NCBI GenBank assembly: GCA_034780895.1
Contig: JAUZTB010000002.1
Coordinates: forward strand, 37,233,530-37,297,529
DNA length: 64,000 bases
Direction: 5' to 3'
Source of the DNA: Rhynchobatus australiae
Taxonomy: Eukaryota
The notes under the pieces are model-generated. The model saw only the letters and a list, made by a program, of their open reading frames with translations, was not told the DNA's origin and searched no databases. The translations under genes were made by a program, and so were the position numbers. This document shows, one piece after another, positions 3,912 to 61,963 of the stretch. Positions within the stretch are counted from its first letter, which is position 1. Each line of letters starts with the position of its first letter.

Positions 3912-3988
3912 AGATGCTGCTCGACCCGTTGAGTTCCTCCAGTAGATTGTTGCTCCAGATTCCAGCATCTGCAGTCCACTGTGTCTCT
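3912..3988 (+). mobile_element. Penelope-like pLTR-derived repeat fragment
   Basis: agatgctgctcgacccgttgagttcctccag...ctccagattccagcatctgcagtc, the same motif as the copies at 13011-13085 and 40472-40538. Confidence 0.7.
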
Positions 3989-4048
3989 AACTTGCCATTC
4001 AACTCATTTGCTGGTTATAGGATTACAGTGCAATTTTTTTTTAAGTAA

Positions 4049-4272
4049 GATCTTTACTAGTCACATGTACATCGAAACACACAGTGAAAAGCAACTTTTG
4101 CATAGGGTGGTCTGGGGGCAGCCTTCAAGTGTCGCCACAGTTCTGGCGCCAACATAGCACGCCCACAACTTCCTAACCCGTATGTCTTTGGAATGTGGGA
4201 AGAAACTGGAGCACCCGGAGGAAACCCATGCAGACACGGGGAGAACAGACAAACTCTTTACAGGCAGCAGCG
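4049..4272 (-). mobile_element. V-SINE (HE1-like central V-domain) with LINE-type 3' tail
   Basis: Minus strand reads gagtttgtctgttctccccgtgtctgcatgggtttcctccgggtgctccagtttcttcccacattccaaagac (V-domain), then a tail ending ttttcactgtgtgtttcgatgtacatgtgactagtaaa. Confidence 0.85.
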
Positions 4273-5649
4273 AGACTGCAGCATTTGTCTACAGAGTAAA
4301 CACAACATGGAGAAACAATTCATTATAGGTGAAGCGCTTGAGATCATTCAGTGAGATAACGAAATGCCAGTCTAACTTAAAAAAATAGTACTTTATGGTT
4401 GGCGGTTAGAAAGTGAACCTTTCTCAAAGTCAGCCAAGTTGCCTGAGTTGAAAGTCTTTTGGCTGTAAATGTTAGACATTAGTTTAAGCCACTTTAGTAA
4501 GTTTCTGACCTGATGTATATTTCCAGCTTTTTTTTAATCTCCTTTATGTCTCTAATTTTGTGTTATTTTGCCTTTGTATCAGCAGAGTTCCTGCTGGCAA
4601 AAGGTCCACAGAATAAAACTCTCCTCACTAGCAAATTAGCACATCGTTGATTGCTGGGAACAGCCTTTAGAAAAATATCAGCAAAAGATTCTTGGTCTCA
4701 CTTTCAGGGTGGCACCTCTATTGCACCAATATGGGGCATTATCATCCTTTGTTACAGTGTCTTAGGTGTGATTGCCAAATTTGTGCTAATTTACTGTCTA
4801 ACTTCCAAAGAAAATGGTCTAAATGACCTTCTGAAAATCAAGGTGAATGATATAGTGAGTTGAATAATATTAATCTTAGGCATTCAAAGCCAGCATCAAT
4901 TGCTTTCAAATCAAGAAGATAGAAAGTCATTCCTGCTTTTTGTAGCTGCCAGAAATGTCCTCAGAGTTGCTCTTCCTGCACAGTATAATTGATCAGAAGT
5001 TTAGCATATGATTTCTTTTGCACATAGTTTTTTTGTGGGGGGGGAGGGAAAGATTTGGCATGACATTGGCTTTGGGTCTGAAGTACGAGCTGGTAATACA
5101 AGCTGGTCTAATGTGGAACTGATATATGTTGACACAGTGTTGTGACACTATGTTTGATTTTCCCTTCCCTACTAAATTCCTTGCTTCACTTGTGTCACTG
5201 AGGTTAATGCTATGTGTGTTGGGGACCTCCATGTGAATTGTGGAGGATACCACCATAAAAAGTAGAGCCTAAGGAACAGATAAGGAGCAACTTTAGAATG
5301 AAGGGTGTAGGGCAACTCTTCCAATCTCCCTGAACGTGCCCTTGGTGCCTGTCTACCCTGGCCCTTGCAGTTTAGTTCAGTGTGCCTGTGGGTGCAGTCT
5401 TCTGCTGGGAGCCAGGCTCCTAGCACTTTGGTGTGGCTGAGTGCAGCACTGCACAGCATACGAGCTGTCACTGTGCAGATAGACAGCGGCACTTACAGAA
5501 CAGTTGTTGAGGCCCCATTTTCCCACCTACCCAAACACCTACAGTAAAGAATATTAGAGAATATCTTTGGCAATCAGAAACATTTAAAATCACTAGATAC
5601 CAGGAAAATAGTAAAAATAACATTTAAAGAAAATAAAAGCATTAAAATA

Positions 5650-5651
<2 letters not shown>

Positions 5652-5680
<29 letters not shown>
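5652..5680. repeat. (AC)n microsatellite
   Basis: About 14 perfect AC units. Confidence 0.97.
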
Positions 5681-6431
5681 GCAATTGAAGACATAGAACT
5701 AATTAGAATAGCTGTTGTGACCTTTCTTCCAGCAACTGATTTCTGCCATTCAGTTCAATAGACCAACTGCAGCCATTCTTCCCAGTCCGAGAGCTGGAAA
5801 GTTTGAAGCAGTTCATGCTTCAGCTTTGGACAATGAAGAGTCCACCAAGTAGTGTAATGGCTGCCGGCAGCACAGGCGCCAGGTTGAAGATGCTGGCTTG
5901 GTTACACCCCAGTGCTGGAAATCTGGGTGAGTTCCTGTGTTATCTCTTGTGTGGAGTCAGAAGATCCAACTCAGTACATTGATGCTATGGAGGTTAAATT
6001 TAGAAGCTGTTAGACCAAGGAAAAGGAAGCTTTTTTCTCTTTTCAATGCAAAGGATTCAAATGCACATAAAATTGTTGAAAGTTGTAAAAATGCAATAAC
6101 TCATTAAAGAGATTTCAGAAAAAAAAATTGCACAAAATCATTAGAAATACTGAGGGCTTTCAACTTTCTCTCATCATCATATGCGCAGATATGATCTTCA
6201 CACCAGAACAAAATTGAATCTGTCTGCGGCACATGGCTGAAATGACTGAAATAGCTTAAAATGGGTGGCAGTTTATTGGTGGTCTGTTTTACAGTTGTCA
6301 TTTAAGTAGATAGAGGTTTGGCAATGTAATTTAAACAGCTTAAATGATTGTGGCAATTCACATGAGGTGATATTTAACATACAATCCATGTAAGTCAGTT
6401 ACATGCAGATTTTCTCAGAAAAGAACTGTAC

Positions 6432-6942
6432 TCAGAATCAGGTTTATTATCACTGACATACGTCATGAAATTTGTTGTTTTGTGGCAGCAGTACAGTGCA
6501 AGATATAAAGGGATAAAAATTACAATGTTACACAAATAAATATAGTGCAAAAGGGGACTAATGAGGTTGTGTTCATGGGTTCATAAACCGTTCAGAAATC
6601 TGATGATGGAGGGGAAGAAGCTGTTACTGAAATGTTGAGTGTGAGTCTTCAGGCTCCTGTACCTCCTCCCTGATGGTAGTAATGTGAAGAGGACATGTCC
6701 CGGGTGGCGAGGGGCCTTAATGATGGATGCTGCCATCTTGAGGCATTGCCTCTTGAAGACGTCCTTGATGGTGGGGAGGGATGTGCCTGTGATGGAGCTG
6801 GCTGAGTCTACTACCCTCTGCGGCCTCTTATGATCCTGTACATTGGAGCCTCCGTACCAGGCAGTAATGCAACCAGTCAGAGTGCTCTCCACCGTACATC
6901 TGTAGAGATTTGTAAGAGTCTTTGGTGACATACCAAATCTCT
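6432..6942 (-). mobile_element. Rex1/Babar-type LINE 3' end (RT C-terminal DUF1891-like region plus 3' UTR)
   Basis: ORF 6581-6931 reads LTNLYRCTVESTLTGCITAWYG...HPGHVLFTLLPSGRRYRSLKTHT..FSNSFFP; the element terminates in aataaa plus a (ctgatt)-type tail. Confidence 0.9.
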
Positions 6943-9900
6943 TGCACTGCAGTTACATTGCAGCTTCCCAGGAAATTCGAAGACATTACGCCGTTTCACC
7001 CCTGAATAAGCCAGACAATTCTGACAGTTTGCACAATGAAAACAGCAAATGCTGCATGAGCAGTTAACAAAACAGCAGATCTCATGAAGTTTAGTCAGAC
7101 ATCTCTGCAGGATATAGAGTGGGGATCATTTATTTTGAGTACTTGATACCTTTAAAAATAAACACATAATTAAAGATGCTGACCTTGAGTTAAAGAGATG
7201 TAAAATGTGCTTTGATCGCACTGTTTCGCTGCATGCACAGGTGTGGCTACTACTGACATTCTTCCATATTTTAAGCTTTTCTTGGAATAAAATTCTTTTG
7301 AAGGATTATATTAACAGCAGCCACCATAAACCTTGCAGCTATTATGTTGTGTCCCTGGAATCACTGTTCCAGCTGCATAAGGCAAATTTCTATTTAAGTG
7401 CATTTATGCTCAATGGAGCTCAATGAATGAGTCATGTTGTGGGAATCTTCTTGTTGTGCTTCAATAATTTAATTAACCAAGATTTTAACATTAAACATTG
7501 TTACACTTTCTGAGTCTACAAATAACTTAGTAGTCTTGGTTTAGTCATTTTTTGACCTCTTCTAGTATAATTTATTCATTGGAAATTTCTCTTGCTAATT
7601 CAACAGGATCTTCTAGATTTACATATGCTGAATATAGATGTATCACATTGCTGGTTCCCCATTTCCTGAAGGTTTATTTAAAGATAAGAAAGGCAGACTT
7701 TATTTTACGTGAACAGCTTTCATGGTTCTATTGGTAAATTTTCCACTTGGTGTGTTACTAAGCCACACGTTTGGAAAGTCACTGAGCAAATATGTTGTCT
7801 GTGGTGAGTTAGGGCAGCAGTGGGAGCTAGGAATTGCCATTCAATTTACAGGTCCTCCCAAGCTTATGAATACCTAACCTAGCATAGCCCGTACATAAAA
7901 ATGAGTGTTTGGGAGACTGGTGGTATGGATTTGCTAGCTACTGTGGTGCTGCAGGCATCTCCTGCTGCCTGAGAACTCGACTCGCAGCTGCATTTCCAAT
8001 TTGCGGACTGTTCAGGTTGCAAACAGTTCACAGGAACGGAACCCAGCTGTAACCTGGGGATGATCTGTACTATCCTCATCATAAGATGCACAGATATGCC
8101 GATCTCACCAGCACAGAACTGAGCTTGTCTGCAACACTTTCCATGGCTGAAGTGATTGCATTCATTTGCTGTCTAACATCACATATGGAGATTGGTTGCT
8201 CACATACGGTAGGAAGGGGTCCTCATTCTTCTAGATGGTAATCATACTTGAATCAACACCTCAGGAATGGAGGGGAGGAATGAATAAAAATAAATAAGCT
8301 GAGTGCTCTAATTGGATTTTTGTGTAAATTATTTTAATAACCCAGGGCTGTTAATTTAAAACTACAGTTGTGTTGACATTAGTATTATTGCAGAGGAATG
8401 TTGTCTTTGCACTTGAGTATAGCAGTGTGCAAGCGCACTTTCCATCCTTGGCAATGATCCAAGACAATCATNNNNAGAATACGCTATTCTGGAAGCAAGC
8501 CAATACCTTGTTTACAGCAATTCTTTCTTTCAGTAATCCTGTTAACATTTGGAAATGGATAAAAACGCTGACTGGGAAATGACAAGACGTTTTTGGAGAT
8601 CGTACTGAATAAATGCTCATAAGGCAATGGGATAGACAAACTGCAAAGGCAGTGGGAAAATTAATAGGTTATATTACTTGATAAATTCAAAAGTTGCTTT
8701 GATCCATTTAATCTCCCTTGTCAAAGAAATGTTTTTACCCTGTGTAGCGTTCTTCAAGATCTCTTTGAATTACACGTAGTGCACAATGGCATGATCAGAA
8801 CCATGAGATCTCATTTCATTAGTCATAGTTTAACAATGTACTGTCATTGCTTTAAAAGAAAATCCTGCAGTGCTGTAGATATAACTAAGACTGCAGTATG
8901 AGGGTACTGAGGTGATGGTTCAACTGAGCAATCAGACCCGATCTTACACTGAAGATTCCAAGACATGTTTCGCACCTGAAGCTTGTCCAGATAAATGAGG
9001 CATTTCCTTGATTTTAGACACTGCTTTATGATGTGTTCAACATTATGAAGCATCAGCACTACAGTGCATTCTGACTCCAGGCTTTGAACTGTTGGCTGAA
9101 GCTTGGCATGCTTTCTCTACTCTGAAAAATAAGAGAAAAATAGCAAGACATTTTAATGCAAAGGACCTACTTAAAAGCAACTGAACATTAGCATATTTAT
9201 TCTGCCATAAATGCACTCTGAAATTTACTATTTTATCTTGGTGGGAGGATCATAGATGAGTCCTGAGTCTTGTTGAAGACGATGGGAGTTTTATGTTTCT
9301 GATTCTTCTTTCATTTGCCTTATGGCCTGATGCTTTCCTTGTACACAGTGCTTAACACTGCCTTTGTAGATTGCTATTAGTGAGTCTTCAATGTTGTACT
9401 TTGATTTTTCTCCCTGCAGTATGTAACACTGACATGCTGGCTGTTTCCACCTCCCCCCACCCCCTATTGAAGGTTTTATAGAATCAAGTAAATCCTGAAT
9501 CATTCTATCTCAGCAGCAGGGGTGAAGAGTATGCTGTTGTGAAGTAGAGAGCCTTTTGAAAGTTGTACTTCAAGGAGACATTTTAGCTGTGGATAAAGAA
9601 AGTTATAAATGGTGAAAAAAAGCACTATAAAAACAAGTCATTCTGAACTGAAAAGTTGCAGGACTCTTTTCCTGAACTTTTATCATCACGGATGGGGGCA
9701 TTTTAGATTACTTTCAAACTCTTTATGTTATTAAATGTAAACTTCTCCATTTCTTAAATGGCTTCTCGTCTGTATGTAATCATAAATTTCATTCTTAACC
9801 TTTCTTTAATATTGTTGCAATCAACTATAGCATAGCAACCTACATAATTTTAATGTTTTTATTGAAGTTCTCCAATTATTTTGTTTAAATTTGGTTTTGT

Positions 9901-11810
9901 GGTAGCCTTCTTATCCCACTTCACTCAGACTTTGGATTGAATTTCAAGCCTATTTATCAGATGTTGTTCATTTGAAGTATTTCAGGTTCCTAAGAAAAGC
10001 ATCAGAACTGACAGTGTGACTTCCCTGTTGTTAATGAGGATCGAGAAGGTGGCACCAGGTGGAAGTAGAGAATGGGCTGGAGAAAGGGCTGTATGTTTAG
10101 CCTTTGGACACGGAGTAATAATGAACATGCATCTACTGAAGGATCTTTGACCCCCACAGCCCAATCTCATTTGGTGCTGGTTGATCTGCTAAGTGCATGC
10201 AAAATTTATTCNNNNNNNNNNGCGCCTGCCATATTTTTTTGATGAACAGCAAAGTCATAATCAGTTTCACGGGCCCCTCCAATATAATAATTATTTACAG
10301 AATGTATTCTGCTTTCAGTGCCAAAATCTTAAGAAGATTCTTAAAAATATTATTGTGCGATGGATTGTGTGACATCATGAGTGGAGAGCATTGTCCCTTT
10401 GCTGAGATTTCTTGTGAACTGTATTTGAAAGTCTATCATTTTCCACTTTTTTATTTCACTATGCTGGTGAGGGGAGAAGAGGAAAATTACAGTCTTTACT
10501 TCCAGTGCATAGGGTCCAATGGAATTGAGGACATCCCTTTGATCACTGCCATGGGAAGTGAGTTTAAAGAGTTTCAAATCACTTCCAAGTTGACATTTGC
10601 ATTTATGTAAGCTTTTTCATGTGTCAGTGGGCAGATCTGTTAACAATTTAAGCCAGTGGTTTTGTAGAGAACTACTTGCTATTTGCCATGTGTTCAGCTA
10701 TCTCTGACTTCTGCACCTCTGTGTTGAATTGTGGAGTCTGGGGATGAGCGAGACTCACTACTGACCTGCTGAAGAGTGGGGTCAAATGTACTTTGCATCT
10801 GGCCCCTCAGCTTTATGCTGGGAAGAGCTGTTGTAAGAAGTAGGACTCCATTCATTAGAGTAGGTTTGCCCACTCTGAGTACAAAGTGCAGGTAAGTTAT
10901 TTATTTATTTTACTTTATCTTAATGTTTCTAATGAACTAATAGTATTCCATTCAAATTATTTTTTTATTTTCTTAACAGATTTTTAAAAGTTGTTTATGT
11001 CTGTGTAAACAGTTAACAGTATCTGTATCAGTAAGGTTTCAAAAGGCCATTAGGTTGTTTGAGCATTGTGATTCACAATCCATTACTTGAGGCCGAGTCA
11101 CTGACTTTAGCCTGCTCCATTGTGAGCTTGTATGGAGGGTCAGGTTGGGCAGTTCTTTAAATATGGAACACATTATGCAGATAGACGGCACAAGTTCAGG
11201 AAGTGAGGTAAATCCAAGTCAATCCACGTGTTGCTATTCAGATTGCTGATGGCATAAAATTCATAACCTGACCATCATAAATCCACAAAGCTGACCGTTT
11301 CCAAACATGGAAAATGTTATTATGCAGATTGGAGTACATCGTGGACAAAGATTGTTGGAGAGAGATTTACTCTGGATTAAACAATGAAGTATGTGGCACA
11401 ATAGTGTTTGATGCTCATGTTACACCTCTTGTGTTTATGAAAATGATAGGTGGATGTGGAGATTGTGCGGTGGAAATCGGTTATGGCTAATTTTCAAGAA
11501 AGTTACCAGTGGGATCTGGACACAACCAGGAGGCAAAGGTTAACCATAAATTATGTTACAGGGCTTATTTCAAAACTTTGGGTGAACTGCCAGCTGGCTG
11601 ATTTCCAAAACATCACTTTCTGTCTGTGAGCCTTGCCGGTATTGCCTTGGATGAATCCCAGGTGATGGAGTATAAAGTGGAGGATTGGGGCTCGGGGAAC
11701 ATCATGAGATGGGAGAAAATCATGGAATGGAAGGTTAATTTCAGGATCACATGTAATCCTAGAGCTACAAATATTTGATGTTCAGGAAAAGCATGAGCAT
11801 CATTTTCTAA

Positions 11811-12035
11811 AAACATAAGAACCTAGGGATTAGGAGCAAGAGTAAACCATCTGGCTCTTTGAACCTACAGCTCCATTCAGCAGAGTCATGGCATTCATCC
11901 TGTTGAGCCCTAGTTGAATTTTCTAAGTTTCACCGAGATTTCCTCTCATTTTCCTAAATTCCAAATAATTTAGGTCTACATGTCTAAGTCTCTCCTCATA
12001 AGGCAAATCCGCCATCCCAGGTACCAGTCCAGTGG
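11811..12035 (-). mobile_element. CR1 LINE 3' fragment, eroded
   Basis: aacataagaa..taggagcaagagtaaaccat tail; minus-strand peptide GMADLPYEERLRHVDLNYLEFRKMRGNL. Confidence 0.8.
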
Positions 12036-12957
12036 ATTTCCATCCTTTGCTTTCATGTGGGTGAATCCTTTTATTGTAGCAAGTGTCGATTATCCTGATG
12101 CAGTTCCTCCATAACAATTATTGATTCCAATTGTGCCAGCAAATAAAAATTGACAGCCCCATTTTAATTTTTTTCAATAATTATTTGAATGGGCACAATA
12201 TAATTATTGGAATATGTCAGTATTGAAGTGGTTTAACATGTCACTGATTGAAGAGTCTAATTTCAACTATTGGTCAGTATGTAACTTCTTTTGAGAAAGT
12301 AATTTCTTCATAATAGTTTACTGGGATATGTGATAAGAATGGGAGTGAAATTACCTTGTCTGAAGCAACTAATAGTAAATCAGCAGCCCAACGTAATACT
12401 TCTCTGATTTTTTTTTCCCACTTACTTTGGAAAAGAAACATTTAAGTTTGTTAAGTAGGTTCACTGCTGCCATTTTAAGTTGCCATTTACGTAGAATGTC
12501 TTCACTTGAAAGCTCACAAATTAGTGACCCACCTAAATCATTTCAGCTTTTCTCTTTCTTTCAGTTTTTTCCCCAGCTCCCTGAAGGTAACATCTTACAT
12601 CGGGCTGCAGAGAAACAGCAACCTTCCTGTGGTATGCTCATATGGCCTTCCATTTTTTATGCCCCACCAGTATTGAAAGGCTGTTTAGTCAAATGTGACA
12701 TGGCAAGTGAGCCTAATTTAGCCCTGATCTCTTCAAGTTTCCAATAAGGATAGGGATGCCATGCTGGAGTTAGGAATCCTGGATAATTTTCCATCGCTAC
12801 TCCTCGCCCATGGCCTTTGAATACAATTATAATGTTGCCACCACTCAACAAGTTTCAGGAACCAAACATGAAAGCTTCCTCATCTGTGAGTCTTATTGTC
12901 ACATTAGTTGTTGCTTTTAACCACTGAACAAGTACAAGAGTCATTTCATTTTAGAGT

Positions 12958-13090
12958 CAGTCCAGATGAAAGGTCTCGACCCGAAACATTGACGGTCCAT
13001 TTCTCTGCACAGATGCTGCCAGACCCTCTCGAGTTCCTCTAGCATTTTTGTGTGTTGCTCCAGATTCCAGCATCTGCAGTCTTTTGTGCC
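12958..13090 (+). mobile_element. Penelope-like pLTR fragment with degenerate hammerhead motif
   Basis: CAGTC-CAGATGA-A-AGGTC-TC-GACCC-GAAA-CATT-GACGG followed by the acagatgctgcc...cagattccagcatctgcagt body. Confidence 0.75.
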
Positions 13091-13170
13091 TTCATTTCAG
13101 TTTTCCTTTGTTGCCTCATTGATGTAATATTTACCAGGAGGCATGCAATCATGGGAAATGAAAATCAAAA

Positions 13171-13335
13171 GACAAACTGCAGATGCTTGAAATCTGAAAT
13201 AAAAATAGAGAATATTGGAAAAAACTCAGCAGTTAGACACCATCTGTGGAAAGGGAAACCGTTTTGATGAGTTCTGACAAAAGGTCCTGGATCCGAAACA
13301 CTAACTGTTTCTCTCTCCACAGATGCAGTCTGGCA
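13171..13335. mobile_element. Penelope-like fold-back element (minus arm plus plus arm) with degenerate hammerhead motif
   Basis: The left arm actgcagatgcttgaaatctgaaataaaaa...catctgtggaaagggaaac is inverted relative to the right arm gtttctctctccacagatgc; AGTT-CTGACAA-A-AGGTC-CTG-GATCC-GAAA-CACT-AACT lies at 13270-13306. Confidence 0.7.
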
Positions 13336-13371
13336 TGCAGTCGTAGGAAGTGTGCTGACTTTGAACCAGAA

Positions 13372-13920
13372 GCTGCCATTTCGGTAGCCTTCAGGTGCAG
13401 CATTACATTGGTTGTTAATTTCTTGTTTGGAACGAGTTAAAGTTTTGGAATAACAGAAGTATATTCTTCCCTCATTTAGAGGGATCTTGTGTCCTTGGCC
13501 TTGCAGAGATCCAGTGTAGAACTGAAGGCTGATTTATTGAAGAAGAAAATGTGTACTAGTTTTCTAATGGATGGACATGAGCTCAGCCATGGTTGAGGTC
13601 TTCCAGGGATTATATCCTGGAATTCTCGCGAGGAGGCAAGGGCATAGTTTAGAGGTACTTGTGGAGTGACGGTTACTGGGGACACTGGTGTATTTTTCTT
13701 TATCCCCAGCCTGCCCAGCAGTGACTGGCTTTGTGGATTCTGTGTGTGCAGAAATCCACTGGGCCCATGCAAATAGGATGACCTTCCACTTGCCCAGCAT
13801 GCACTGGCAAGGTTAGTGGTAGAGGTCACCATAGGACTTGCCCTCAGCATCAGCTATTAGATCCGATCGATGAAGCAATTTTGTATCCATTCCTGCATCC
13901 CAGTGCTGTGCGACATAACA
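13372..13920 (+). mobile_element. Highly eroded PIF/Harbinger (HARBI1-like) transposase remnant
   Basis: Colinear motif remnants in shifting frames: AISVAFRCSITLVVNFLF, FPHLEG, YPG, LLG-D-G, HALARLVVEVTIGL, LDPIDEAILYP, CCA-HN. Confidence 0.5.
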
Positions 13921-16910: not shown

Positions 16911-17290
16911 AAGAAGAGTAGGCCATTCAATCCTCAAACCTGTTCTGCTACTCAGTGAATCATGTCTAATCTGTACTTTAAACTCTATCCATCTTTCTTT
17001 TCTGTAAGTATTAATACATTTTAATTCAGCAGTTTGTTTTTGGAGGGGAATGATTTCTTGCTTTCCACTAGGGTTTCTGACCTGCCTCTTAACATCATCC
17101 TTTAAAAGCAGGGCTCTCATTTGAAGATAATAATCTTTATTCTGGTATTTCCCCTCAGAAAAAAATATTTATGTCCATCCACCATACCTAGCCTTATAAA
17201 CAGCTTAAAGATATCAATAAATAACATCTTAATCTTACTCGAGAAAACACAAGCCTACCTTCTACAGCCTGTTTTTCACAACTTAATATA
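16911..17290 (-). mobile_element. Old CR1 LINE 3' fragment
   Basis: gagtaggccattcaatcctcaaacctgttctgc tail motif followed by CR1-like 3' sequence. Confidence 0.65.
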
Positions 17291-20992: not shown

Positions 20993-21114
20993 AACAAAAA
21001 CAACTGCAGATGCTAGAAATCTAAAATAAAAAAAGATTAAAATGCTGGAAATATTCAGCAGGTCAGGCCACATCTGTGAAAGAGAAACAGAATCAACGTT
21101 TCATCTTTGACCTT
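20993..21114 (-). mobile_element. Penelope-like pLTR-derived repeat fragment
   Basis: actgcagatgctagaaatctaaaataaa..aatgctggaaatattcagcaggtcagg..catctgtgaaagagaaacag..aacgtttc. Confidence 0.75.
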
Positions 21115-48504: not shown

Positions 48505-48982
48505 AAACAGAAAAATAAGAGTAGGAGTAGGCCATTTGACCCTTTGAGCCTTCCTCACCATACAATACAGTCATAGTTAATCTTCTGTTTCAGCGATATA
48601 TTCCCACTCTCTCCTCATATCTCTCAAAGCCTTTTGTGTCTGGGAATTTATCTATCCACTTCTTAAAAACAGTCAATGGCCTGGCCTCTAGTACCCTTGT
48701 GATAGCAAATTCCACAGGATCACTCTCCCCTGTATGAAGAAATTTCTCATCTCATTTCTAAATCTCTTACCCCATGATCTGAGACTATGAAACTCCATTG
48801 TAAACGCCCTAGCCAAAGGCAAAAATCCTTCCTGCATCTAATCAATCTAGCCTTGTCAGAATATTTTAGCTTTAATTAAGATCCCCTCTCTTTCTTTGAA
48901 ATCCTAGTGAAAATAATCTCAACCGAGATTAGTCAACCTAATCTCTCTTCATACAGCATGCTATCCCAGGAATCAGTCTGGT
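48505..48982 (-). mobile_element. CR1 LINE 3' fragment
   Basis: aggagtaggccatttgaccctttgagcc..aaattccacaggatcact..gaagaaatttctc..atcccaggaatcagtctggt. Confidence 0.85.
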
Positions 48983-50489: not shown

Positions 50490-50925
50490 CATAAGAATGT
50501 ATGAAGTAGAAGCAGGAATTGGCCACATGCCTTCTATCCCATTCAAAAAGATCTCAGTTGTTCTTCTTTATTGCAGCACCTGTACTAACTGTATATCTCT
50601 TGATTCCTTTAATATCTCAAAAATCTATCAGTATCTGCCTTAAATAAATTAAACACCTGAGCCTCCACAGCATTCTTAGGTGGAGAATTCCAAAGATTCA
50701 CTACCCTCAGGTTGAAGAAACTTCTTCTCACCTCTATTATGATTGACTGATCCCTTTCTTTGAGGCTGTGTTCCCTGGTTCTAGACGCCCCAGCCAGGGA
50801 AAACATCAGCTCTGCATCCATCTTGCCCAGCTCTAACAATTCTGTATATTTCAATGAAATTGCATTTCATTCTTGCAACTTGAGTGCATAGACCCAGGCT
50901 GCTTAATCTTTTCTTATGTGACAAA
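50490..50925 (-). mobile_element. CR1 LINE 3' fragment
   Basis: ORF 50609-50854 reads MFSLAGASRTREHSLK...RRSFFNLRVVNLWNS.P..AVEA..FKA. Confidence 0.88.
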
Positions 50926-52336
50926 TCTTTCCTTGTGTGACTACCAGTCTATAGGCTACTTGCCTTCTTTATGCTGTAATCAACACCATCCCCATGTAGA
51001 TGAGCAGAATCCTACTCACCAGCTGGAGCCCCACTGTTCCCCTATCTCTGTCATGCAGCATTCTGCTGTCAGTCACAAGTCTGAGAACTCTCAGCCATTG
51101 GCAATCGACTTTCAGCTCAAGGATTTTGAAAATCAATGTTGAGTAATGAAGGGATAATTGATAGTCAAAATACATTGCTAATCTATGTCAGATACAAAAG
51201 AGTAAACTTGATTCATTTGGGGAAAACCTGAAAAATGAAGCTGTAAAATTATTCCTTGAGAAGGATCTGAACGGCACCAAAGGACTCAATTGTTGAAAAT
51301 GTCTTAAGTTTCTCTGTTTATAACTATTTTGAATTAAATGTTTCCAATAATGTTTCATTAAGAGTTTTGAAGAAATGTGCCTTTGCAGCATGAATAAAAT
51401 TCTCTCTATTGCCACCTTGTACCACTGCCATCCTGTGGCTGTCTCCCTTCGCGACTGTGAGTGGTTACAATTTGAAATCCACTGACTGAAAGGGTAGTAA
51501 AAGCAGATGCTATGGTAACCTTCAAAACTGAATGGAATAAGTACTTGAAAATGAGAACATTGCCAGCTATGGGAAAAGACCAGAGGAATATGACTAATTT
51601 TTCCTGAGGTGGCATAGCCACAAGGGCTTTCTTCTGTGGGGTGTGGGTGTATAAGCACATCTTTTTGGTATCTTCATCTCAATTGAATAGTTCTTTTGTA
51701 TCTTTCAGATTTATCCCAGAGCACTAAGTAGTTTAAAATGCAGCTTGGTTTTACTCTCTCAGTTATTCAGAGGCTTCATTGCCAATTTGTCTTGGTTCCC
51801 ACTAAAAGCAATTAATACAAAAGCATTGGATAGGCAGCAGCTTTATTACACTCATGCACCTGTGGTTTCAATGGAAGCTGGGTGTTACATAAATAAGCCA
51901 TTGCAATAGGCAGCTAATGCTGAGCAAATCAACACTGCAGTTGTTTGGTTAGGGGCGTGATGCTTAAAATTGCACAACTGCTATTAGTGACACTTAGAAG
52001 TATTTCTTTGATTCAGAAGAACCCTAACTTTCAGCAGTCTGTTAACTGAACTTGGAATGCTTTTTTTTGTGGGATATATCATTTCCAGAGAGTAAAAGAT
52101 TGCTGCCTTTTTTCCATCTAAGTGTTGCTCTTGACATCATTCATGGGCATGGTTTGCTGAGTTTGTTCACCATTTTTGGTGGAGTGTTTTTGCCACTTGA
52201 CTTGTGCTTTGCATCAGATTGGTCCCAGGTTTCACCCGTATTCTGTGCTGAACTTGCTGTTGTTAGGAGGAGCAGTGGTGTGGACTAGTTTCAGCATTTT
52301 GAGCAGAGACTGATAGTGTAATGAGAAAATACCCCC

Positions 52337-52432
52337 TCCAGATCGAGGGTCTTGACCCAAATCGTCAACTCTCCAGCTACCTCCACAGATGTTGAGTTTC
52401 TGCAGCATGTTTCCAGAAAATCTTTGTTGCCC
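52337..52432 (+). mobile_element. Penelope-like fragment with degenerate hammerhead motif
   Basis: cagatcga-GGGTC-TT-GACCC-aaat-CGTC-aact..cctccacagatg. Confidence 0.6.
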
Positions 52433-55036
52433 GAAGTGAAAAGACATTTTCTCTTCAATCAGTAAACTTTTATAGCAGCATTTGCATTGCAGAAACGCTC
52501 ACTGACTACATTCATAAAGTTACTGCCTCAGGTCATGTGAAAGTGTGTGCATGTGCATGTGTGTACACGTGAGACAGTGTATGTATTTCTATTTTTATTT
52601 CAGCCTGATTTTTTTTCCCAGTTGCTTAATGGAGAATTTTACTTAATTTTTTTTGTATCTGTGAAGTCTGGCATTACTCTGTGTGTATTAAGGTGATTGC
52701 TAAAATTCCAAATTTATAACACAGAGCAATGTTTACTGTGATTTGGGTACATTGGTCTTTCAGTCCAATAAAGTTTTCAGTTCCATTTTAATGTTTAGAA
52801 AATCCTGTGAAATTACTGAGATTGACTCCTGTGGTGTAGCATGACATTGCTTGTTTGGCCATTATCGGAATGTTTTGGATATCATTAATGAGGAATTGCA
52901 GTGTTTTATCAATACCTTAAAACTTGTATTTACCTTCTGGTCTTAACATAAGAAATATAAAAGCATTCTACAGATGAAGAGAGGATACAAAAAGTGAAGG
53001 AAATGAGACAGTTACAGTAAAGGGAAAGTTTATTTATGGAGAGCTTCAGAACCAGGTAAGGATGATGTAGCAGAGGGATTTGGAAGGACCACCACAGCTG
53101 AAGGATTGGTAGGAGCATGAGTTGAAGTAGATTAGTGCAGATTGTTTGCAAGATCATAAAACTTGGAGGAGATCAGAAAACCAGGTTAGGGATGATCAAA
53201 AAGAACTTTAACATGAAGATCAAGGATATTTGAACCTTTGTGATACAGGAAAGCAGCAATACATGGTGGGCAGTATTTTGAGGGAGGTCCAGGGCTTTGT
53301 ATCGCATGCAGACTATGGATTGGATCTAGAGTTAGAAGCTCAGCTCAAGGTCAAGCACAATAGTAGACATTTGAACCTTGGGGTAAAGCAGTCTGGGATA
53401 GTAGCCTGCAGATGATCACAGAAGAGGAGGAGGATTTCCCTCATTGGTTATCATGACACTGATTATTTCAGTACAATGACAAAGTCAATTATTTTAACAC
53501 ACAGATATAGTGATGAATTCTGACATTAACAAATTGATTATTTTTGCCATTAGTTGATATTCAGAAAAATTATTGAATTAAAAATCTGAATTGCTCTTGA
53601 ACTTTGGTTAACTTCCACCAGCCATTTCAACCATTAACAAACATTGCCAGAAGCAACTCCATCTATATCTGAGGATTGGTGGTTCTGGAATCCAAACACA
53701 ATTGTCTTCAATCAGTTGCAGGCTTTGTGCTTGTTTTCTTTATAATGTGGTCTGTTCTTGGTAAACCCAATCATTTTCCAACTTCTGCCTTCCTATAATT
53801 ATCATTCCGGTAGGAAATACTCAGTTTCTGGCTGCTTTGGAATGATGCTCTTTATTTTGTATTGACGGATGTTTAAAAACTCTCATGGAATGCAGCATGA
53901 CTGTGCAATGCATTGTTTCTCCAGTTCGTTAATCCCTACTTCCTAGTTCTATTGCTAATGATCCAAAGTGAGGTGGGTGCATTTGGACCATTCTGTTCTC
54001 TGACTTCCATTTCAGGACTATAATATAAAATGTAGACCCCATGATTCCAGATGATATTTTCTGTGTCCAGCCTGTTGGTGTTTAGCCTGATGATTAGGAA
54101 TAATCAAAAATAAATACCACATCCTGAAAGCTAGAGATAACATTGTGACAGCTCCATTGGTTGCCAACCATTTTCAGATTTTTGGAATTTTTAAATCTCT
54201 ATTTTGCATTCTGATGATTGTTGCAGGGTAAGTCCTGCTTTTTGATAATCCCATCAAATGTTTTCTCTACTAGCGCAGCCAGTCACTGGAAGAACCAACC
54301 AACTGGCAACATCTTTATCTCAGTATTGAAGGAATTGATTTCAGAGTACGGAAAGCAATTAGAAATGGAAATCTTTGTGGTGCAACTCACGCTGTATTAG
54401 ATAAAGTATTTTTATAACATTGTGTTTAAAATATGACACCAAGGGAACATAACTCAGAGCAGAACAATAGGGATTCTAAGCCTTCTGTGGCTGGAGATAA
54501 TCAGCAAGAATGATTGGATCGGCAGAGCTCCAGATAGTCTCGGAANNNNNNNNNNNNNNNNNNNNNNNNNNNNNNNNNNNNNNNNNNNNNNNNNNNNNNN
54601 NNNNNNNNNNNNNNNNNNNNNNNNNNNNNNNNNNNNNNNNNNNNNNNNNNNNNNNNNNNNNNNNNNNNNNNNNNNNNNNNNNNNNNNNNNNNNNNNNNNN
54701 NNNNNNNNNNNNNNNNNNNNNNNNNNNNNNNNNNNNNNNNNNNNNNNNNNNNNNNNNNNNNNNNNNNNNNNNNNNNNNNNNNNNNNNNNNNNNNNNNNNN
54801 NNNNNNNNNNNNNNNNNNNNNNNNNNNNNNNNNNNNNNNNNNNNNNNNNNNNNNNNNNNNNNNNNNNNNNNNNNNNNNNNNNNNNNNNNNNNNNNNNNNN
54901 NNNNNNNNNNNNNNNNNNNNNNNNNNNNNNNNNNNNNNNNNNNNNNNNNNNNNNNNNNNNNNNNNNNNNNNNNNNNNNNAGCAATGTGTTCCAGTCAATT
55001 CCAAAGGCTAGTTTATTCAGCAAATTAAGAATTAAT

Positions 55037-55390
55037 ATCAGAATCAGATTTATTATCACTGACTTATATGACATGAAACTTGTTGTTTTGCAGCAGCAGT
55101 ACAGTGCAAAGATATAAAATTATGATAAATTACAAAGACAGTGCAAAAAAAAGAGTACTGAATTAGTGTTCATGGACCCTTCAGAAATCTGAAGGCAGAG
55201 GAGAAGAAGCTGTTCCTGAATCGTTGAGTGTGAGCCTTAAGGCTCCTGTACCTGCTCCCCGATGAGTAATGAGAAGAGGGTATGTCCTGAATGGGGATGG
55301 TCCTTAGTGATGGATGCCACCTTCTTGAGGCACCGCCTCTTGAAGATATCCTCAATGGTGGGGAGGGTTGTGCACGTGATGGAGTTAGCT
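55037..55390 (-). mobile_element. Rex1/Babar-type LINE 3' end (sister of 6432-6942)
   Basis: Closely similar UTR (atcagaatcagatttattatcactgac..cagcagtacagtgcaa) and peptide SGSRYRSLKAHTQRFRNSFF. Confidence 0.9.
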
Positions 55391-58300
55391 CTAGATGGAA
55401 CTAGCCTTCAATAAAACATTTATTTTATTTGAAAGGAATGGTTTTCTTGTTTCTTCTTGACCTATTGATAAAATCTAATTTGCAGAAACTGCTCATTTTG
55501 GAGCCTTACATTCTTTTGACTTCATTACCATCTTTTAATTACTGAGCAATGCAAGCAATCTGTTCAAAGCATTTCATCTCTGATGCTAAATGGTAACTTT
55601 AGGGAGGAAAGCAGTTACACTCAGCATAGGACCAGAATAATTGGTTAACTTTTAGGTAGGGCAGAATAAAATGAGAAGCTATGTCTTTTAGCATAATTTT
55701 GTAAAAAATACAATTCTAATACATTGACTTTAATAATTTCACATTTTCAATTGTAAGTATGTTCTGTCCTTAGCTGCCCAATTATTTGGTGGGGAACAAT
55801 ATTTTGGACATCTTTATTGCACTTTTTTTCTGTGTAATATCCCTACTATTTGTGTTTTCTGACATGAAGATAAATATGGGAGTTCAGATAATTAAGTATG
55901 TAAAAAAAAATTAAAACAGAACATGTCATTATTGATCTACATAGTAGTGGGCCCGAAGAACGAGTGACACAAAGTTCAGCAAAAAATGTCAACTTATTTT
56001 AGTGACTTAATTTCTTTTGATAGAAAATTGATGATGAACTTGTTTGCATGAAATTCCTTTATATGCTATTTTAACCTAATTATTTAAACAGGTTAATGAC
56101 TGCGCTAAAATAAGAATGTTATGTGAATTAACAATAGTACATTCCCAAAGGAGATTAACCCCTTAGTGTTGAAGGGTTTCATGTTTTTTCCCGTATGAAA
56201 TACTTGTTGCCATGATGTGTAAGGCATGGGGCAATGGATAATTGGGTCGGAGGAATATAAAATGTACTAAGCACCATTTGCAGAGCAAGTGGTCTCTAGC
56301 AGTGCCAGAACTGCCTTTGCTTCTCTGGAATGGAGTCTTTCACCTCAGACTGATAGCAGCAAGTGGGAAGCAGACGAAGAGGCTCTCTTGTGAAATTTAA
56401 AGTGCTCATTTCAGAATATGTGTAGGAAACCGTTTATGTACAAATGGACAGGGACAGGTGCGGANNNNNNNNNNNNNNNNNNNNNNNNNNNNNNNNNNNN
56501 NNNNNNNNNNNNNNNNNNNNNNNNNNNNNNNNNNNNNNNNNNNNNNNNNNNNNNNNNNNNNNNNNNNNNNNNNNNNNNNNNNNNNNNNNNNNNNNNNNNN
56601 NNNNNNNNNNNNNNNNNNNNNNNNNNNNNNNNNNNNNNNNNNNNNNNNNNNNNNNNNNNNNNNNNNNNNNNNNNNNNNNNNNNNNNNNNNNNNNNNNNNN
56701 NNNNNNNNNNNNNNNNNNNNNNNNNNNNNNNNNNNNNNNNNNNNNNNNNNNNNNNNNNNNNNNNNNNNNNNNNNNNNNNNNNNNNNNNNNNNNNNNNNNN
56801 NNNNNNNNNNNNNNNNNNNNNNNNNNNNNNNNNNNNNNNNNNNNNNNNNNNNNNNNNNNNNNNNNNNNNNNNNNNNNNNNNNNNNNNNNNNNNNNNNNNN
56901 NNNNNNNNNNNNNNNNNNNNNNNNNNNNNNNNNNNNNNNNNNNNNNNNNNNGAGTTAACTGCAGATATGCAACATTAGCTGTTTTCATCATATTGACCAT
57001 TTCTCATTGTTTTTCTCCATTTAAGCTTCTTTCATACATCACTTAGTAGCTTAGAAAATACTGAAGGCTTCGCTAACCTGCCTGTTATTTGCAAGTAGTG
57101 CACATCAGGGCCAATTGATGGGAGGAGGGGGAGGCAATGATTGGGTTGGAGGGGGGATATTGAAGGTGGGTTTGGGGTGGTTGCTTGTTAAATATTACTT
57201 TTGTTTTTAATGCATGACACCTATTGAATCTCTCCACCCCCACACATGTCCCTGATCCTAAGAAAAACAGCTATTAAATCCATGAACTGTTGCTGTGTCC
57301 ATAATTCATATCTGATTATTCTGTTATTGATTTCCCTTCCATATCACCATGAGACCTCCTCCTTTAGGAAAGAATAGTTTTCTTCCTGACCACAGGGAAA
57401 AAAAGAAAATCTACAGTGCAGTTAAATATTTCAAACTCTTAATCCAAAGTAGCTATGGCAAAAGGCTAATAATTCAAAAGTCTGACCTCAAATTCGACCA
57501 GTGTGATGTGATAACTGGTGCATGAAGTGACCATAAGAGCTGCCATGTTGCATGCTTTGACCAAGTTTACCACTAGCTTGTTCAAAATGCAGGTTGGAAA
57601 GAAGTTGTGAGAAAGAAGGCACGTTTGTGTTTTCCANNNNNNNNNNNNNNNNNNNNNNNNNNNNNNNNNNNNNNNNNNNNNNNNNNNNNNNNNNNNNNNN
57701 NNNNNNNNNNNNNNNNNNNNNNNNNNNNNNNNNNNNTTCCAGTTGAGCATTTTCATTCTTTTAAAAAATAACAAATATTTTCTATGTAATTATTTTCAGT
57801 GTTGCTTTTAGTACCCATTGAGGAATAGATTTGTTTTGGGGGTAAGATTTAAAATTAAACTGATAAAAAGTTTGAAACAAGAAACTCACCAGGTCTACTT
57901 CTGGTTTTAACAGAAGCAGATAAAGGCAGGCCTGGAAGTCTTCAGATGAAGTTAGGAGCCAGATCTATCAGGTGGTTGTCTCACAGCGGTTAGGAGTGGG
58001 TATGTTTCCTCTGAGTGTGACAGGCGAACCTGTAAACTCTACCTAACACACGTCCACTACCTCCAAAATTCCAGACCCTACACCCTGAAAACAATATGAT
58101 CAATGTCTTTGTGAGTACTAACCTCCAATCTCTTCGCTCCTTAACATGCTGCTGCTGCTGCTCCCCCTCCGACCTTTCCCTTCCATCTCCCCTGTCTCTC
58201 TACAATGTTTACCTCCAAAAATTATTTGATGTACTTTTTGAGTTGCAAGATTTCTCTTTCTTCTTCAAAAGCTGCCAATCAAGCTGGCTTCCAGTCAATG

Positions 58301-59204
58301 TATGTATTTTCTTTAAAAGCGTGCATCCACTGGAGTTAAAGTCCACAGTTTTTCCCAATAATAAGTAGCATTGCCATACCTTCAAGGCCTAATCTTGATG
58401 AGTATAGGGACTTTTTCTCATATTATTACCCTCCACACTTGGTCATTTAGAGTGGATTCTGAGATTGCTCTGTGGTGGTTAGTGTTAACTTGAGTAAAGG
58501 AAGCTTTCCCTAGGTGTGGACCTGCGGAAAAATATAAGAGGCATCAATGCAATCTATTTAACCTGAAAGAGCCTTATTTCTGTTCAGCAAGCTTTTCTGA
58601 GAGCTTTTCTGGTTTCGACCATGTAGCATTTTGCTTGCTGTATTTCTTCTTTACTATTGTAGAATGGGACCACATTTATGAGAAATCTTGACCGCTGCGT
58701 TGAGGGCTCCCAGATTGGAGATAAAGAACCAGTGAAAGTCAGGATGGATAAAAAGCAGTAGATTAGAAATTAGATTGCATAGCCCTGAAAAAATCAGTGC
58801 ATCTGATCCACTTATGATTGCACCTAGAGTAAATCATGTTAGCCAACATTTCCTGGTGACATTATACAAATTATGAAGTTGGACCAGGCTAGTGGCACAA
58901 ATCTTAAGCACTGAGATTTGTCAGCATTGCTGACTTTCGCTGAGTGTAGGCAGTCTTTGACTATACTCATGAGTCCACAATTATTTCCCCATTGACCTGA
59001 ACCTTTTTTTAATTGGAACCAGTTCCCATTCCCCCAGTGTGCAGATGGTTGTGGATCACTAGAAGAATTTTCTAATGGTGAATGTCAGTAGACATGACTT
59101 CTTCATCTAAGAGAGTCAGTTGTGCTGGATATTTTCAGTGCTGACACTACCCTGAGGGAAGAATCCTGGGGAACAAAGACTTCGTTCCATACACCATTGT
59201 ACTG

Positions 59205-59470
59205 TCTAAACACAGTAGCTCAACACAGGTATATGTGATCCACCAATACCAATACAGCAGTGAAAAATGCTTTATATCTCAGAAGACTGAGATGTTGTTG
59301 CTTGAATCAGTCCGGTGGCATCCAGCTCTACGTGTCCGGTAGCTGCAGAGACTTTGCCATAGTGTGCTTTATTCTGCATAACCTTTGCAATCAGAGGATG
59401 AGCAGCAAGAAGACAAAGAGCCTGCAGAGCAACAAGATCAAGAAGAGCAGGGGAAAGAAGAAAAATACCA
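59205..59470 (+). mobile_element. PIF/Harbinger (HARBI1-like) transposase C-terminal remnant
   Basis: RLRCCCLNQSGGIQLY...AIVCFILHNLCNQR resembles RFRCLD.SGG.LQY...IVVCC.LHN; followed in another frame by an acidic tail DEQQEDKEPAEQQDQEEQ. Confidence 0.6.
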
Positions 59471-60009
59471 GTGGAATTTCCTTTCTTGGTAACCACATCC
59501 TTGGGTTCAAGTGAGTGGAAAAAGAAGGCATTATATAAAAAAAACCTCTGTAATAAAGAGACAAAATCATGGTCCCTAATGCAAATTGTGAACCCTACAT
59601 CCTTCAATCTTTACCAACCATATATTAGGTAGGGAAGCCTATAGTGGTGTGAAACTCACACAGACATATCATATGAGGGCATAAAGTTTGTTTCTGTAGC
59701 AGATGGGTTTTCTCATTCCTGGAGAAGATACCTAGAACCATTGCCATGCATTTCCTCTTGTGATGGTTCTGGTTGGTCTCCTGCCCTGTTGGTGTACAGG
59801 ATCTCCCTTATGGCCCCTTGAGTGATTCTAGTAACTCCCTACCTCTTTCCTGCAGCCTTTCTCTCCTCCTTGGCTGCCATAGAGTGTGCTGCTGCTCTCT
59901 ACCTGGCTCATGGAGTGGGGGTTTCTTAACGGTTGACATTGGTAGGTATCCAACAAAGTGTTGCAAACCAGATTTAATTGAGCTTGATTCCATCGAGAAA
60001 CATATCGGA

Positions 60010-60084
60010 ACAAGAGACTGCAGATGCTGGAATCTAGGTCAAAAAAACAAACTGCGGAGGAACTGAGTGGGTCAGGCAACATCC
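60010..60084 (-). mobile_element. Penelope-like pLTR-derived repeat fragment
   Basis: agactgcagatgctggaatct..ggaggaactgagtgggtcaggcaacatc. Confidence 0.75.
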
Positions 60085-61386
60085 ACTTGATGGAGAGCCA
60101 GTGTCACAGGAGAGTTTCATTCTATCCTCCAATGATGTCCACAGAAATTAAGCTTCCAGGAAAGGACTTCTGACAATCATCAGGAAACTTTGCCTAAATT
60201 TTCCTCAAACATATTCTATGGGAATTGAAGTCAACTGTAACCCCAGGATTCCAGTCATGTCTGGCATCAACTGCCTGGGGATTGAGTTATAACATTTTTT
60301 TCGCCAGAACCTGATTCTTGCTGTGCCAAGAAATCTTTCCCTGCTATTATTGATGTGCACTCTTTGATTTGGAGTGGTCTTGAAGACCATTCCTCTTAAC
60401 TGGTGTGCAAGTAGACTATCCCATTAAAATTCAGTTTTGATCACCATTATTATTATTGAAACTAATAGAAAGTAATCCAATTGCAACACCAGCTAAAATT
60501 TGGTATTAGTATTCCCAGTCACACCACGATGACTCAACTGTGTATAAACATTGGTGATTGTAATGTATTGTGAGCATTAATAACGCAGCACTTTAAACAT
60601 TTCTAATATGTATCAGGTCATGGAATTTTACAGTCTCTCAGATTGTTCATCAGTGTACTTTCGGAAGTAACGCCACAGTCATCAATCCTCTAGTGTCAAT
60701 GGCATCACACTTGAAGGACAAGGTGTGCATTGGAACTCAGCCAGCCATGTACAAGAAAAGCTCCACACACCAAGAGCTCAGGCACAATGACATTGAGATA
60801 AAGGTTAATTCCAGAAGGATAGATCTTTGAACTTGCATGGATTTGACAGGCTTTGTGCAGGATGTTTCAATAATGACTGAATATTATGTTCCAGGCACTC
60901 AGTGGATAGTGACTCTGATTGTGAATCCTTGCTCATCCAGTTTAGTGTGAGCTATGCAGTTTTAAAAATTGTGGGTATCCCTTATGGATGTACTGCAAAT
61001 ATATCTGTTGAAAATCACAACAAAACTGGAAGGTAGAAAAAAGATATACAAAATTAAGCATTGAAGATGATAAATAATTAAATACTAACACAATCTGCGA
61101 ACTTAAACTAGTATTCAGATAATGGCTGTAAGTTGACGATTGGTTTATTTTGGGGTTTCATAGAGAGAGATAATAAGACTTGTATTACAATGTTCATGAT
61201 GTCAGTCTTCACAGCTGAAGGGGACCTATTAAAGAGTTGTCACTGATGTAATATAGGAAATGTGCCAGCAATTTGTTTTCCACAAGATCCCAGAGAACAT
61301 AACAACAGAGACAATTGGATAATTAGCGAGAAATTTATCTTGAGTCAGTACCACTAAATGTTATAAATAGTACTTGTATGATATGG

Positions 61387-61588
61387 AAGAGACTCTAGAT
61401 GCTGGAATTTGGAGCAAAATATAAACTGCTGGAAGAACTCAGTGGGTCAAGCAGTATCTGAGGAAGCAAAGTGTTGGTTGGCATCAGGACCTGATGTAGG
61501 CTCTCAACCCAAAATGTTGACTGTCTCTTTGCCTCCACAGATGTTGCTTGATGCACTGAATTGTGCCAACTGTTTATTTATTTTCTCC
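61387..61588. mobile_element. Penelope-like fold-back element with back-to-back hammerhead cores
   Basis: Left-arm reverse complement ctttgcttcctcagatactgcttgacccactgag matches right arm ctttgcctccacagatgttgcttgatgcactgaa; centre CATCAG-gac-CTGATG at 61482-61496. Confidence 0.8.
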
Positions 61589-61740
61589 TAGATGCTACAT
61601 TCCACTTCTGATATTCAGTTCCATTGACCTCAGTGGACCACATTTTGGAAGTTGAGTAGAATGTGCAGCCACTAATATATAGCATGTTTAGCATTACTGG
61701 GATTGAATTTCCAGGCAAATTAGTTTCAGTGACATGTACG

Positions 61741-61963
61741 CAGAAAATAGTGGAAATAATTAACAGGTCAGACAGTATATTTGAAAAGAGAAACAGAAAT
61801 TATATTTCATGTTGATGACCTTTCATGAGATAACCCATCATTCAGCTCATTGGTCTTAAATGGTAGCCTTTTTATTCTTGCAACATGGATGCTGCCTGAC
61901 TTACTGAGCATCTCCAACACTTAAAGTTTTAATTTAAGATTCCAGCATCCCCAGTATCTTGTT
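61741..61963. mobile_element. Penelope-like fold-back element, eroded
   Basis: Minus arm cagaaaatagtggaaata..caggtcagacag..gagaaacag and plus arm gatgctgcctgacttactgag..agattccagcatc. Confidence 0.65.

What the first reader, a model, noticed from the sequence alone, without database searches (positions are those of the whole stretch)
3912..61963. Intron seeded with about a dozen Penelope-like fragments carrying a minimal hammerhead ribozyme
Seen: copies at about 3912, 12958, 13171, 20993, 21760, 23271, 30198, 40160, 46221, 52337, 60010, 61387 and 61741 share one body. Aligning those that retain the 5' part gives the consensus CAGTC(or AGTT)-CTGANGA-A-GGGTC-NN-GACCC-GAAA-CGTY-GACTG(or AACT). 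This is stem I, the CUGANGA box, stem II, the GAAA box and a loop-less ACGU palindromic helix III ending in a GUH cleavage triplet. Stem I covaries between subfamilies (AGTC/GACT versus AGTT/AACT), which supports RNA structure. Established: Penelope-like element pLTRs and non-autonomous retrozymes carry such minimal type I hammerheads, which cleave as dimers. Inference: this is an abundant non-autonomous, ribozyme-bearing retroelement family in an elasmobranch, with no RT or GIY-YIG ORF recognisable in the window.
Basis: partly seen in the sequence, partly recalled or inferred. Interest (0 to 1): 0.7.

Follow-up and report, generated by a model that had tools for sequence, protein, structure and literature searches.

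The report
Penelope transposon tails with decayed hammerheads
The repeats are shortened, worn tail ends of a known kind of jumping gene (a Penelope-like element) that carries a tiny, likely self-cutting RNA motif, none of them intact in this intron, and the one unusual point is that two widespread lineages of the element carry changed core letters that would likely weaken cutting.

Summary
The repeat is real: 17 copies at the 13 cited sites, in an EphA-receptor intron. The family consensus is a minimal type I hammerhead. But no window copy is intact (0 descriptor hits), and 4 of the 13 sites hold half the motif or none.

It is not a non-autonomous retrozyme. It is the ~138-nt pseudo-LTR tail of RT + GIY-YIG Penelope-like elements of Neptune type. 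RT, GIY-YIG and tail are colinear in 12 of 20 RT loci, and the tail precedes the ORF start in 18 of 30 loci. The genome holds about 350,000 tails, so this intron is ordinary. Under 1% keep an intact canonical motif.

PLE hammerheads are published, and this scan noted the family three times elsewhere in this genome. The addition here: two lineages spread to thousands of copies with altered core positions, U4→A and A9→C. That suggests either tolerated variants or that cleavage is dispensable for spread. It is untested.

The parts
814..1483 (+). Host exon, EphA-type receptor (ligand-binding and Cys-rich domains); EphA7 by recall
   Evidence: Pfam Ephrin_lbd E 8e-67; PDB EphA hits; splice sites read
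1484..63239 (+). Host intron holding all copies
   Evidence: GT..AG ends and in-phase join
63240..63395 (+). Next host exon
   Evidence: Pfam Ephrin_rec_like
3911..3986 (+). Tail only, no hammerhead
   Evidence: HMM positions 54-123; blastn
12958..13090 (+). Full tail, U4A lineage (CAGAUGA); helix II closing pair broken, G16.2 lost
13177..13338 (.). Head-to-head pair of old-subfamily copies (13259-13177 minus; 13270-13338 plus, core CUGACAA, triplet broken)
21004..21103 (-). Old-subfamily tail with only the 3' half of the hammerhead
21783..21876 (+). Old-subfamily tail, decayed hammerhead
23297..23389 (-). Old-subfamily tail, decayed hammerhead (core CUAAUGG)
30197..30264 (+). Old tail fragment, at most the 3' edge of the hammerhead
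40156..40537 (.). Inverted pair of subfamily A copies across an assembly gap (40256-40156 minus, with ~20 nt of 3' UTR, core CUGAUAA and GGAA; 40448-40537 plus)
46226..46328 (+). Subfamily D copy, closest to intact: both boxes kept, G16.2 changed to A
52337..52412 (+). U4A-lineage copy, both boxes decayed
60018..60085 (-). Tail only, no hammerhead
61394..61597 (.). Head-to-head pair of the A9C lineage (61483-61394 minus; 61488-61597 plus, core CUGAUGU and AAAA)
61738..61950 (.). Head-to-head pair of old copies (61827-61738 minus, decayed core; 61884-61950 plus, no hammerhead)

Best explanation
The copies are 5'-truncated ends of Neptune-type Penelope-like retrotransposons encoding RT and GIY-YIG, whose pseudo-LTR begins with a minimal hammerhead predicted to cleave only as a dimer, and the copies in this intron have decayed and are likely inert. 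Shown: the order is 3' UTR, hammerhead (+1 to +38), tail (to about +138), then the ORF with a likely start near +173. Insertions end at two places about 35 nt apart and are often head-to-head. Inferred from the Anolis PAc work: the element's protein nicks DNA and primes reverse transcription inside the tail, stops early in most events, and leaves the 50-140-nt pieces seen here. After insertion, CpG decay hits G12, G16.2 and the cleavage step and removes the motif. Uncleaved RNA is the likely template, because 5' ends do not pile up at the cleavage site and lineages with altered cores spread widely.
For: GIY-YIG then tail at 290-500 nt in 16 of 16 evaluable GIY-selected loci; the other 14 of 30 are cut by gaps or contig ends. 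RT, GIY-YIG and tail colinear in 12 of 20 RT loci, 4 without a gap. Tail directly before the ORF N-terminus in 18 of 30 loci. RT fragment 52% identical to an intact 955-aa RVT_1 + GIY-YIG protein. C-x4-C-x2-C linker present, the Neptune/Nematis marker in PMC8557442. 3' ends peak at +100-103 (12 of 72) and +136-138 (13 of 72), the PLE tail of PMC11167929. 31 of 126 sampled hits have an inverted partner within 50 nt. CpG sites keep 205 of 351 consensus letters against 2040 of 2395 in the tail. 2 ungapped breaks at +31..+36 against 2.7 expected.
Against: No copy with an intact whole ORF was seen; the longest gap-free RT frame was 423 aa, in a gap-rich assembly. Core sites are slightly better kept than the tail (590 of 652 against 2040 of 2395), which ascertainment can explain but which was not excluded as weak selection. 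Neptune placement rests on motifs, not on a tree with named references. The old subfamily E has only 1 clear GIY-YIG link among its 6 tblastn rows (L272). 5' ends are about three times denser at the hammerhead's 5' edge than elsewhere (13 against 4.3 expected, post hoc), which leaves room for short dedicated templates.
Confidence: 0.88

Rival explanations
1. The copies are a non-autonomous retrozyme or SINE-like family that starts at the hammerhead, spreads through cleaved or circular RNA and borrows PLE proteins.
For: 46 of 126 sampled hits begin within -15..+10 of the hammerhead start. A local excess of 5' ends remains in young copies. One small tandem with two intact hammerheads 76 nt apart exists elsewhere in the genome (L317). 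The 2026 preprint reports tandem retrozymes in one chondrichthyan.
Against: Much of the 46 reflects an upstream model that lacked the old subfamily's UTR. In young copies truncation is spread along the tail (0.010-0.016 per nt). All subfamilies link to GIY-YIG. No head-to-tail array of the repeat occurs in the window. There is no peak at the cleavage site.
Confidence: 0.08
2. Sense-strand copies act as working or domesticated ribozymes that cut the Eph-receptor pre-mRNA.
For: 10 of 17 copies lie on the host's sense strand. Intronic domesticated hammerheads are known in amniotes (figure legend seen).
Against: 0 intact motifs in the window. The six sense copies that cover the motif all have core or helix III defects. 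Minimal motifs need a partner and were inactive as monomers (PMC4209133). Copy density is average.
Confidence: 0.02
3. The U4A and A9C lineages still cleave. A9C could be an inserted C with the following spare A acting as A9, helped by the element's own protein.
For: Helix II, the GAAA box and the ACGU palindrome are kept in both lineage consensuses. Metazoan minimal hammerheads carry a spare nucleotide after position 9. The PAc hammerhead cleaves only with protein. A viroid U4C variant keeps enough activity in vivo (PMC3088659).
Against: Single changes in the CUGA turn gave low activity in a full mutational scan of a type III hammerhead (PMC9901934). The A9C lineage also lost the outer pairs of helix I without compensation.
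Confidence: 0.4

Closest known systems
Minimal hammerheads (min-HHR) of metazoan PLE pseudo-LTRs (Cervera and de la Pena 2014, PMC4209133; parts 1-2 of 4 read, supplements searched)
   Same: Type I layout, spare nucleotide after A9, G10.1-C11.1 pair, no loop III with a palindromic 15.2/16.2 pair, mostly single dispersed copies, some inverted pairs.
   Different: Copy number here is about 350,000 tails with roughly 2,700 intact canonical motifs in the younger subfamilies, against 4,000-9,000 motifs reported for coelacanth and Xenopus by a different method. The core variant reported there is U3-A8; U4A and A9C were not in the text read. Shark terms gave no hit in 2 searchable supplement files; 1 file could not be searched.
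Neptune-clade EN+ Penelope-like elements (as described in Craig et al. 2021, PMC8557442; passages read)
   Same: RT with C-terminal GIY-YIG, CX2-5CxxC linker, Cys pair inside the GIY-YIG core, heavy 5' truncation, partial tandems, inverted 5' copies, 30-40-nt tail.
   Different: Not placed on a tree with named references. Nematis shares the linker. Microsatellite targeting was not tested.
Anolis Poseidon element PAc (Frangieh et al. 2024, PMC11167929; parts 1-2 of 4 read)
   Same: Hammerhead at the pseudo-LTR/ORF junction; two 3' ends defining a tail.
   Different: The PAc ORF starts inside the hammerhead and Poseidon lacks the Zn linker. Here the likely start codon lies about 35 nt after the tail.
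Non-LTR retrozymes of animals (Li et al., bioRxiv 10.64898/2026.07.22.740005; parts 1 and 3 of 5 and passages read)
   Same: Type I hammerhead, derived from PLE pseudo-LTRs.
   Different: Retrozymes are defined as head-to-tail tandem units with no ORF. The window has none; its copies are solitary or head-to-head and trace to ORF-bearing elements.

Membership tests
EN+ Penelope-like element | RT plus C-terminal GIY-YIG in one colinear element | tested here: met
   12 of 20 RT loci; homologues with RVT_1 + GIY-YIG
EN+ Penelope-like element | Partial tandem: pseudo-LTR both before and after the ORF | tested here: met
   Tail before the ORF in 18 of 30 loci; after GIY-YIG in 16 of 16 evaluable loci
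EN+ Penelope-like element | 30-40-nt optional tail and inverted 5'-truncated partner | tested here: met
   3' end peaks at +100-103 and +136-138; 31 of 126 with an inverted partner within 50 nt
EN+ Penelope-like element | Intact single ORF in a currently active copy | tested here: inconclusive
   Copies translated are broken or gapped; the assembly has many gaps at these elements
Neptune clade | CX2-5CxxC linker before GIY-YIG | tested here: met
   C-x4-C-x2-C in L067, L068, L238
Neptune clade | RT phylogeny with named Neptune references | not testable with these tools
   No named PLE reference set was available
Minimal type I hammerhead | CUGANGA and GAAA boxes, helices I and II, palindromic helix III, NUH site (family level) | tested here: met
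   Consensus of subfamilies A, D, E; 3,454 genome matches, 78 of the first 100 canonical; helices I and II form in folding
Minimal type I hammerhead | The same features in the copies of this window | tested here: not met
   0 descriptor hits; per-copy defects
Minimal type I hammerhead | Covariation beyond chance | tested here: inconclusive
   One compensatory pair between subfamilies; the whole structure is not above shuffles but is above slid controls on cells paired
Minimal type I hammerhead | Self-cleavage as a dimer | not testable with these tools
   Needs an in vitro assay
Non-LTR retrozyme | Head-to-tail tandem units, each with a hammerhead | tested here: not met
   None in the window; one small example elsewhere
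Non-LTR retrozyme | No coding capacity in the master element | tested here: not met
   GIY-YIG upstream in each subfamily
Non-LTR retrozyme | Circular or unit-length RNA | not testable with these tools
   Only assembled contigs were offered, no raw reads

The most novel reading that the evidence does not exclude
Two ORF-bearing lineages of this element lost ribozyme activity through changes at normally invariant core positions (U4 to A; A9 to C with a shortened helix I) and still spread to an estimated 20,000 and 40,000 copies. This would be genome-scale in vivo evidence that hammerhead cleavage is dispensable for Penelope retrotransposition, with a ready set of natural variants to test.
Probability: 0.4. 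Interest if true: 0.55.

Novelty: new member of a known kind. Interest (0 to 1): 0.3.

Why it matters
It gains some value because the role of the PLE hammerhead is open. PMC8557442 calls its function unclear and raises the idea that it merely parasitises the element. PMC11167929 found core mutants harmless for insertion in vitro. Lineages that amplified with altered cores make that question testable with natural sequences: either cleavage is dispensable in vivo, or the hammerhead core tolerates two changes not seen in the papers read here. It also warns that motif counts overstate working ribozymes: under 1% of tails keep the intact canonical motif.

Tried and rejected
Rfam scans found no hammerhead in the window or on an intact copy, so Rfam is blind to this minimal form and its silence means nothing.

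Splice-acceptor idea: the motif is preceded by a pyrimidine tract and CAG, and the Drosophila Penelope intron ends at helix I. But 5' ends show no single sharp peak after the AG and I saw no shared upstream exon by eye. Left open.

Cleavage-defined 5' ends: no peak near +34.

A first 18-fold 'cliff' of 5' ends at the hammerhead was largely an artefact of a UTR model without the older subfamilies. It fell to about threefold in 50 young copies kept from 76.

Expression: no RNA holder was listed for the host exon. Contigs of two runs of uncertain type from other organisms hold the family but cannot show ends or strand.

The tree resolved the A, D and A9C lineages but left the U4A lineage as a star, so the order of core changes is not shown.

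Pfam missed GIY-YIG in the decayed copies; the assignment rests on alignment to intact homologues.

Lünse et al. 2017 on PLE hammerhead variants could not be opened and may already list such core variants. Searches for a shark or ray report and for inactive-core subfamilies found none. bioRxiv supplements were closed.
Full report
Observation. All 13 cited positions carry the repeat. A profile HMM built from genomic copies gives 17 hits in the window and none in the reversed control; four sites are head-to-head pairs. They lie in one intron (1484-63239) of an EphA-type receptor gene on the + strand (EphA7 is my recall). The family consensus reads CAGUC CUGAUGA A GGGUC UC GACCC GAAA CGUC GACUG: helix I, the CUGANGA box, a spare A, helix II, the GAAA box, a loop-less ACGU palindrome and a GUC site. 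Real intact copies fold helices I and II.

State of the window copies. Nine of 17 hits cover most of the motif, four its 3' part and four none. Of seven fully spanning copies one (46226) keeps both boxes, and it has lost G16.2. A structural descriptor finds no intact motif in the window or in 800 kb sampled at even steps along 11 large contigs, while it finds 33 in pattern-selected loci. Genome-wide, a 34-nt intact-fold pattern for the younger subfamilies has 3,454 matches. I counted 78 canonical, 16 U4A and 6 A9C among the first 100 listed, so about 2,700 intact canonical motifs; the old subfamily E is not covered by this pattern. G12, G16.2 and the cleavage step sit in CpGs, which keep 205 of 351 consensus letters against 2040 of 2395 in the tail and 590 of 652 at non-CpG core sites. 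This fits mostly passive decay after insertion.

Covariation. It is one change between subfamilies. For the whole structure the covariation score equals that of shuffles (207 of 500 as high), though cells paired (67.5%) exceed all slid controls. The 60 rows were 58 of the 64 sampled copies (6 poorly aligned ones left out) plus two window copies.

What the repeat belongs to. Walking upstream from genomic copies reaches a GIY-YIG C-terminus about 330 nt away. The first look of the genome search gave 41,121 candidates for GIY-YIG and 11,601 for RT, of which 150 each were scored. Of 30 GIY-selected loci, 16 could be followed and all 16 lead to the tail; 14 end in gaps or contig ends. Of 20 RT loci, 12 show RT, GIY-YIG and tail in order, four without a gap. 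Searching with the ORF's 5' region, the tail lies directly upstream in 18 of 30 loci, the query's own locus included. The repeat is therefore the pseudo-LTR end and the leader of the ORF. The RT fragment is 52% identical to an intact 955-aa RVT_1 + GIY-YIG protein, and the N-termini of such homologues point to a start near +173 (my reading by eye). A C-x4-C-x2-C linker is the Neptune/Nematis marker (PMC8557442, passages). 3' ends in 72 young copies peak at +100-103 (12) and +136-138 (13), matching the optional tail that PMC11167929 ties to two RT start sites. 31 of 126 sampled hits have an inverted partner within 50 nt. No intact whole ORF was found.

Abundance. 126 hits in 800 kb scale to about 351,000 tails (bootstrap 284,000-423,000). 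The window's 17 against 11.7 expected is unremarkable (p about 0.09).

Subfamilies and core variants. Clustering 273 copies gives lineages A (canonical), B (U4 to A), C (A9 to C, with helix I cut to three pairs), D (canonical, youngest) and E (canonical, oldest). Of 58 sampled spanning copies, E has 29, C 15, B 7, A 4 and D 3, or roughly 42,000 C and 20,000 B genome-wide on these small counts. A CpG-free 18-mer with both positions open has 13,812 exact matches. Among the first 100 listed (one contig) I counted 43 canonical, 40 U4A, 12 with C at position 9 and 5 others; position 4 was A in 41 but C or G in only 3 each. These are inherited states, not scattered decay. With the core box masked, C is still a supported clade (98/97, 20 rows, none with A9), while B is an unresolved star. 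Both variants occur behind GIY-YIG, and one C copy behind RT and GIY-YIG (L297).

Meaning of the variants. A full mutational scan of another hammerhead found low activity for changes in the CUGA turn (PMC9901934, passages), and core changes are generally damaging though some are tolerated (PMC3088659, section 8 and passages). In PAc, dead hammerheads did not affect insertion in vitro and no RNA ends mapped to the cleavage site. Here 5' ends show no excess near +34 (2 seen, 2.7 expected) but a threefold excess at the motif's 5' edge (13 against 4.3, chosen post hoc). I give 0.4 to 'both lineages spread with dead ribozymes' and 0.4 to 'the variants still cleave'; mixed outcomes take the rest.

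Mechanism. Shown: anatomy, linkage to the ORF, two 3' ends, inverted pairs, decay, variant lineages. Inferred from published PLE work: target-primed reverse transcription from within the tail, early termination, dimer-only cleavage. Untested: any cleavage or expression.

Comparison and verdict. Minimal hammerheads in fish, amphibian and reptile PLEs are published (PMC4209133). I found no shark or ray report in three searches, but the most relevant paper on variants could not be opened. Three earlier notes of this scan reached the same main reading on other pieces of this genome; a word search found none on the core variants. Verdict: a new member of a known kind, inert in this intron, with one testable side finding. 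Interest 0.3.

Noticed in passing
L317:780-990 (G000:C1 near 2828230): Small tandem of about 70-76-nt units with two intact subfamily D hammerheads and a partial third. It is retrozyme-like and could form the dimer in cis.
   Followed up: partly
window:12950-12962 and family consensus: A pyrimidine tract plus CAG directly precedes helix I in subfamilies A-D, like a 3' splice site. The Drosophila Penelope intron ends at the same place.
   Followed up: partly
family-wide, model positions -10..+10: 5' truncation points are about three times denser at the hammerhead's 5' edge than along the tail: possibly a transcription start, a splice site or an RT stall.
   Followed up: partly
window:37595-38350: Degenerate 17-nt AT-rich minisatellite array.
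   Followed up: no
window:6421-6952 and 55027-55400: Two copies of a LINE-like RT C-terminal fragment about 85% alike; the family name was not checked.
   Followed up: no
window:1791-2249, 29402-30707, 44401-45224, 50609-50866: Fragments that read like CR1-type LINE ORF2 pieces (name recalled).
   Followed up: no
window:2234-2264 and 2886-2916: 31-nt inverted arms, 97% complementary, 621 nt apart; possibly a MITE.
   Followed up: no
L242:1360-1620: Contigs from another organism join +260 of the leader back to the hammerhead start, that is short tandems of pseudo-LTR plus ORF start.
   Followed up: no
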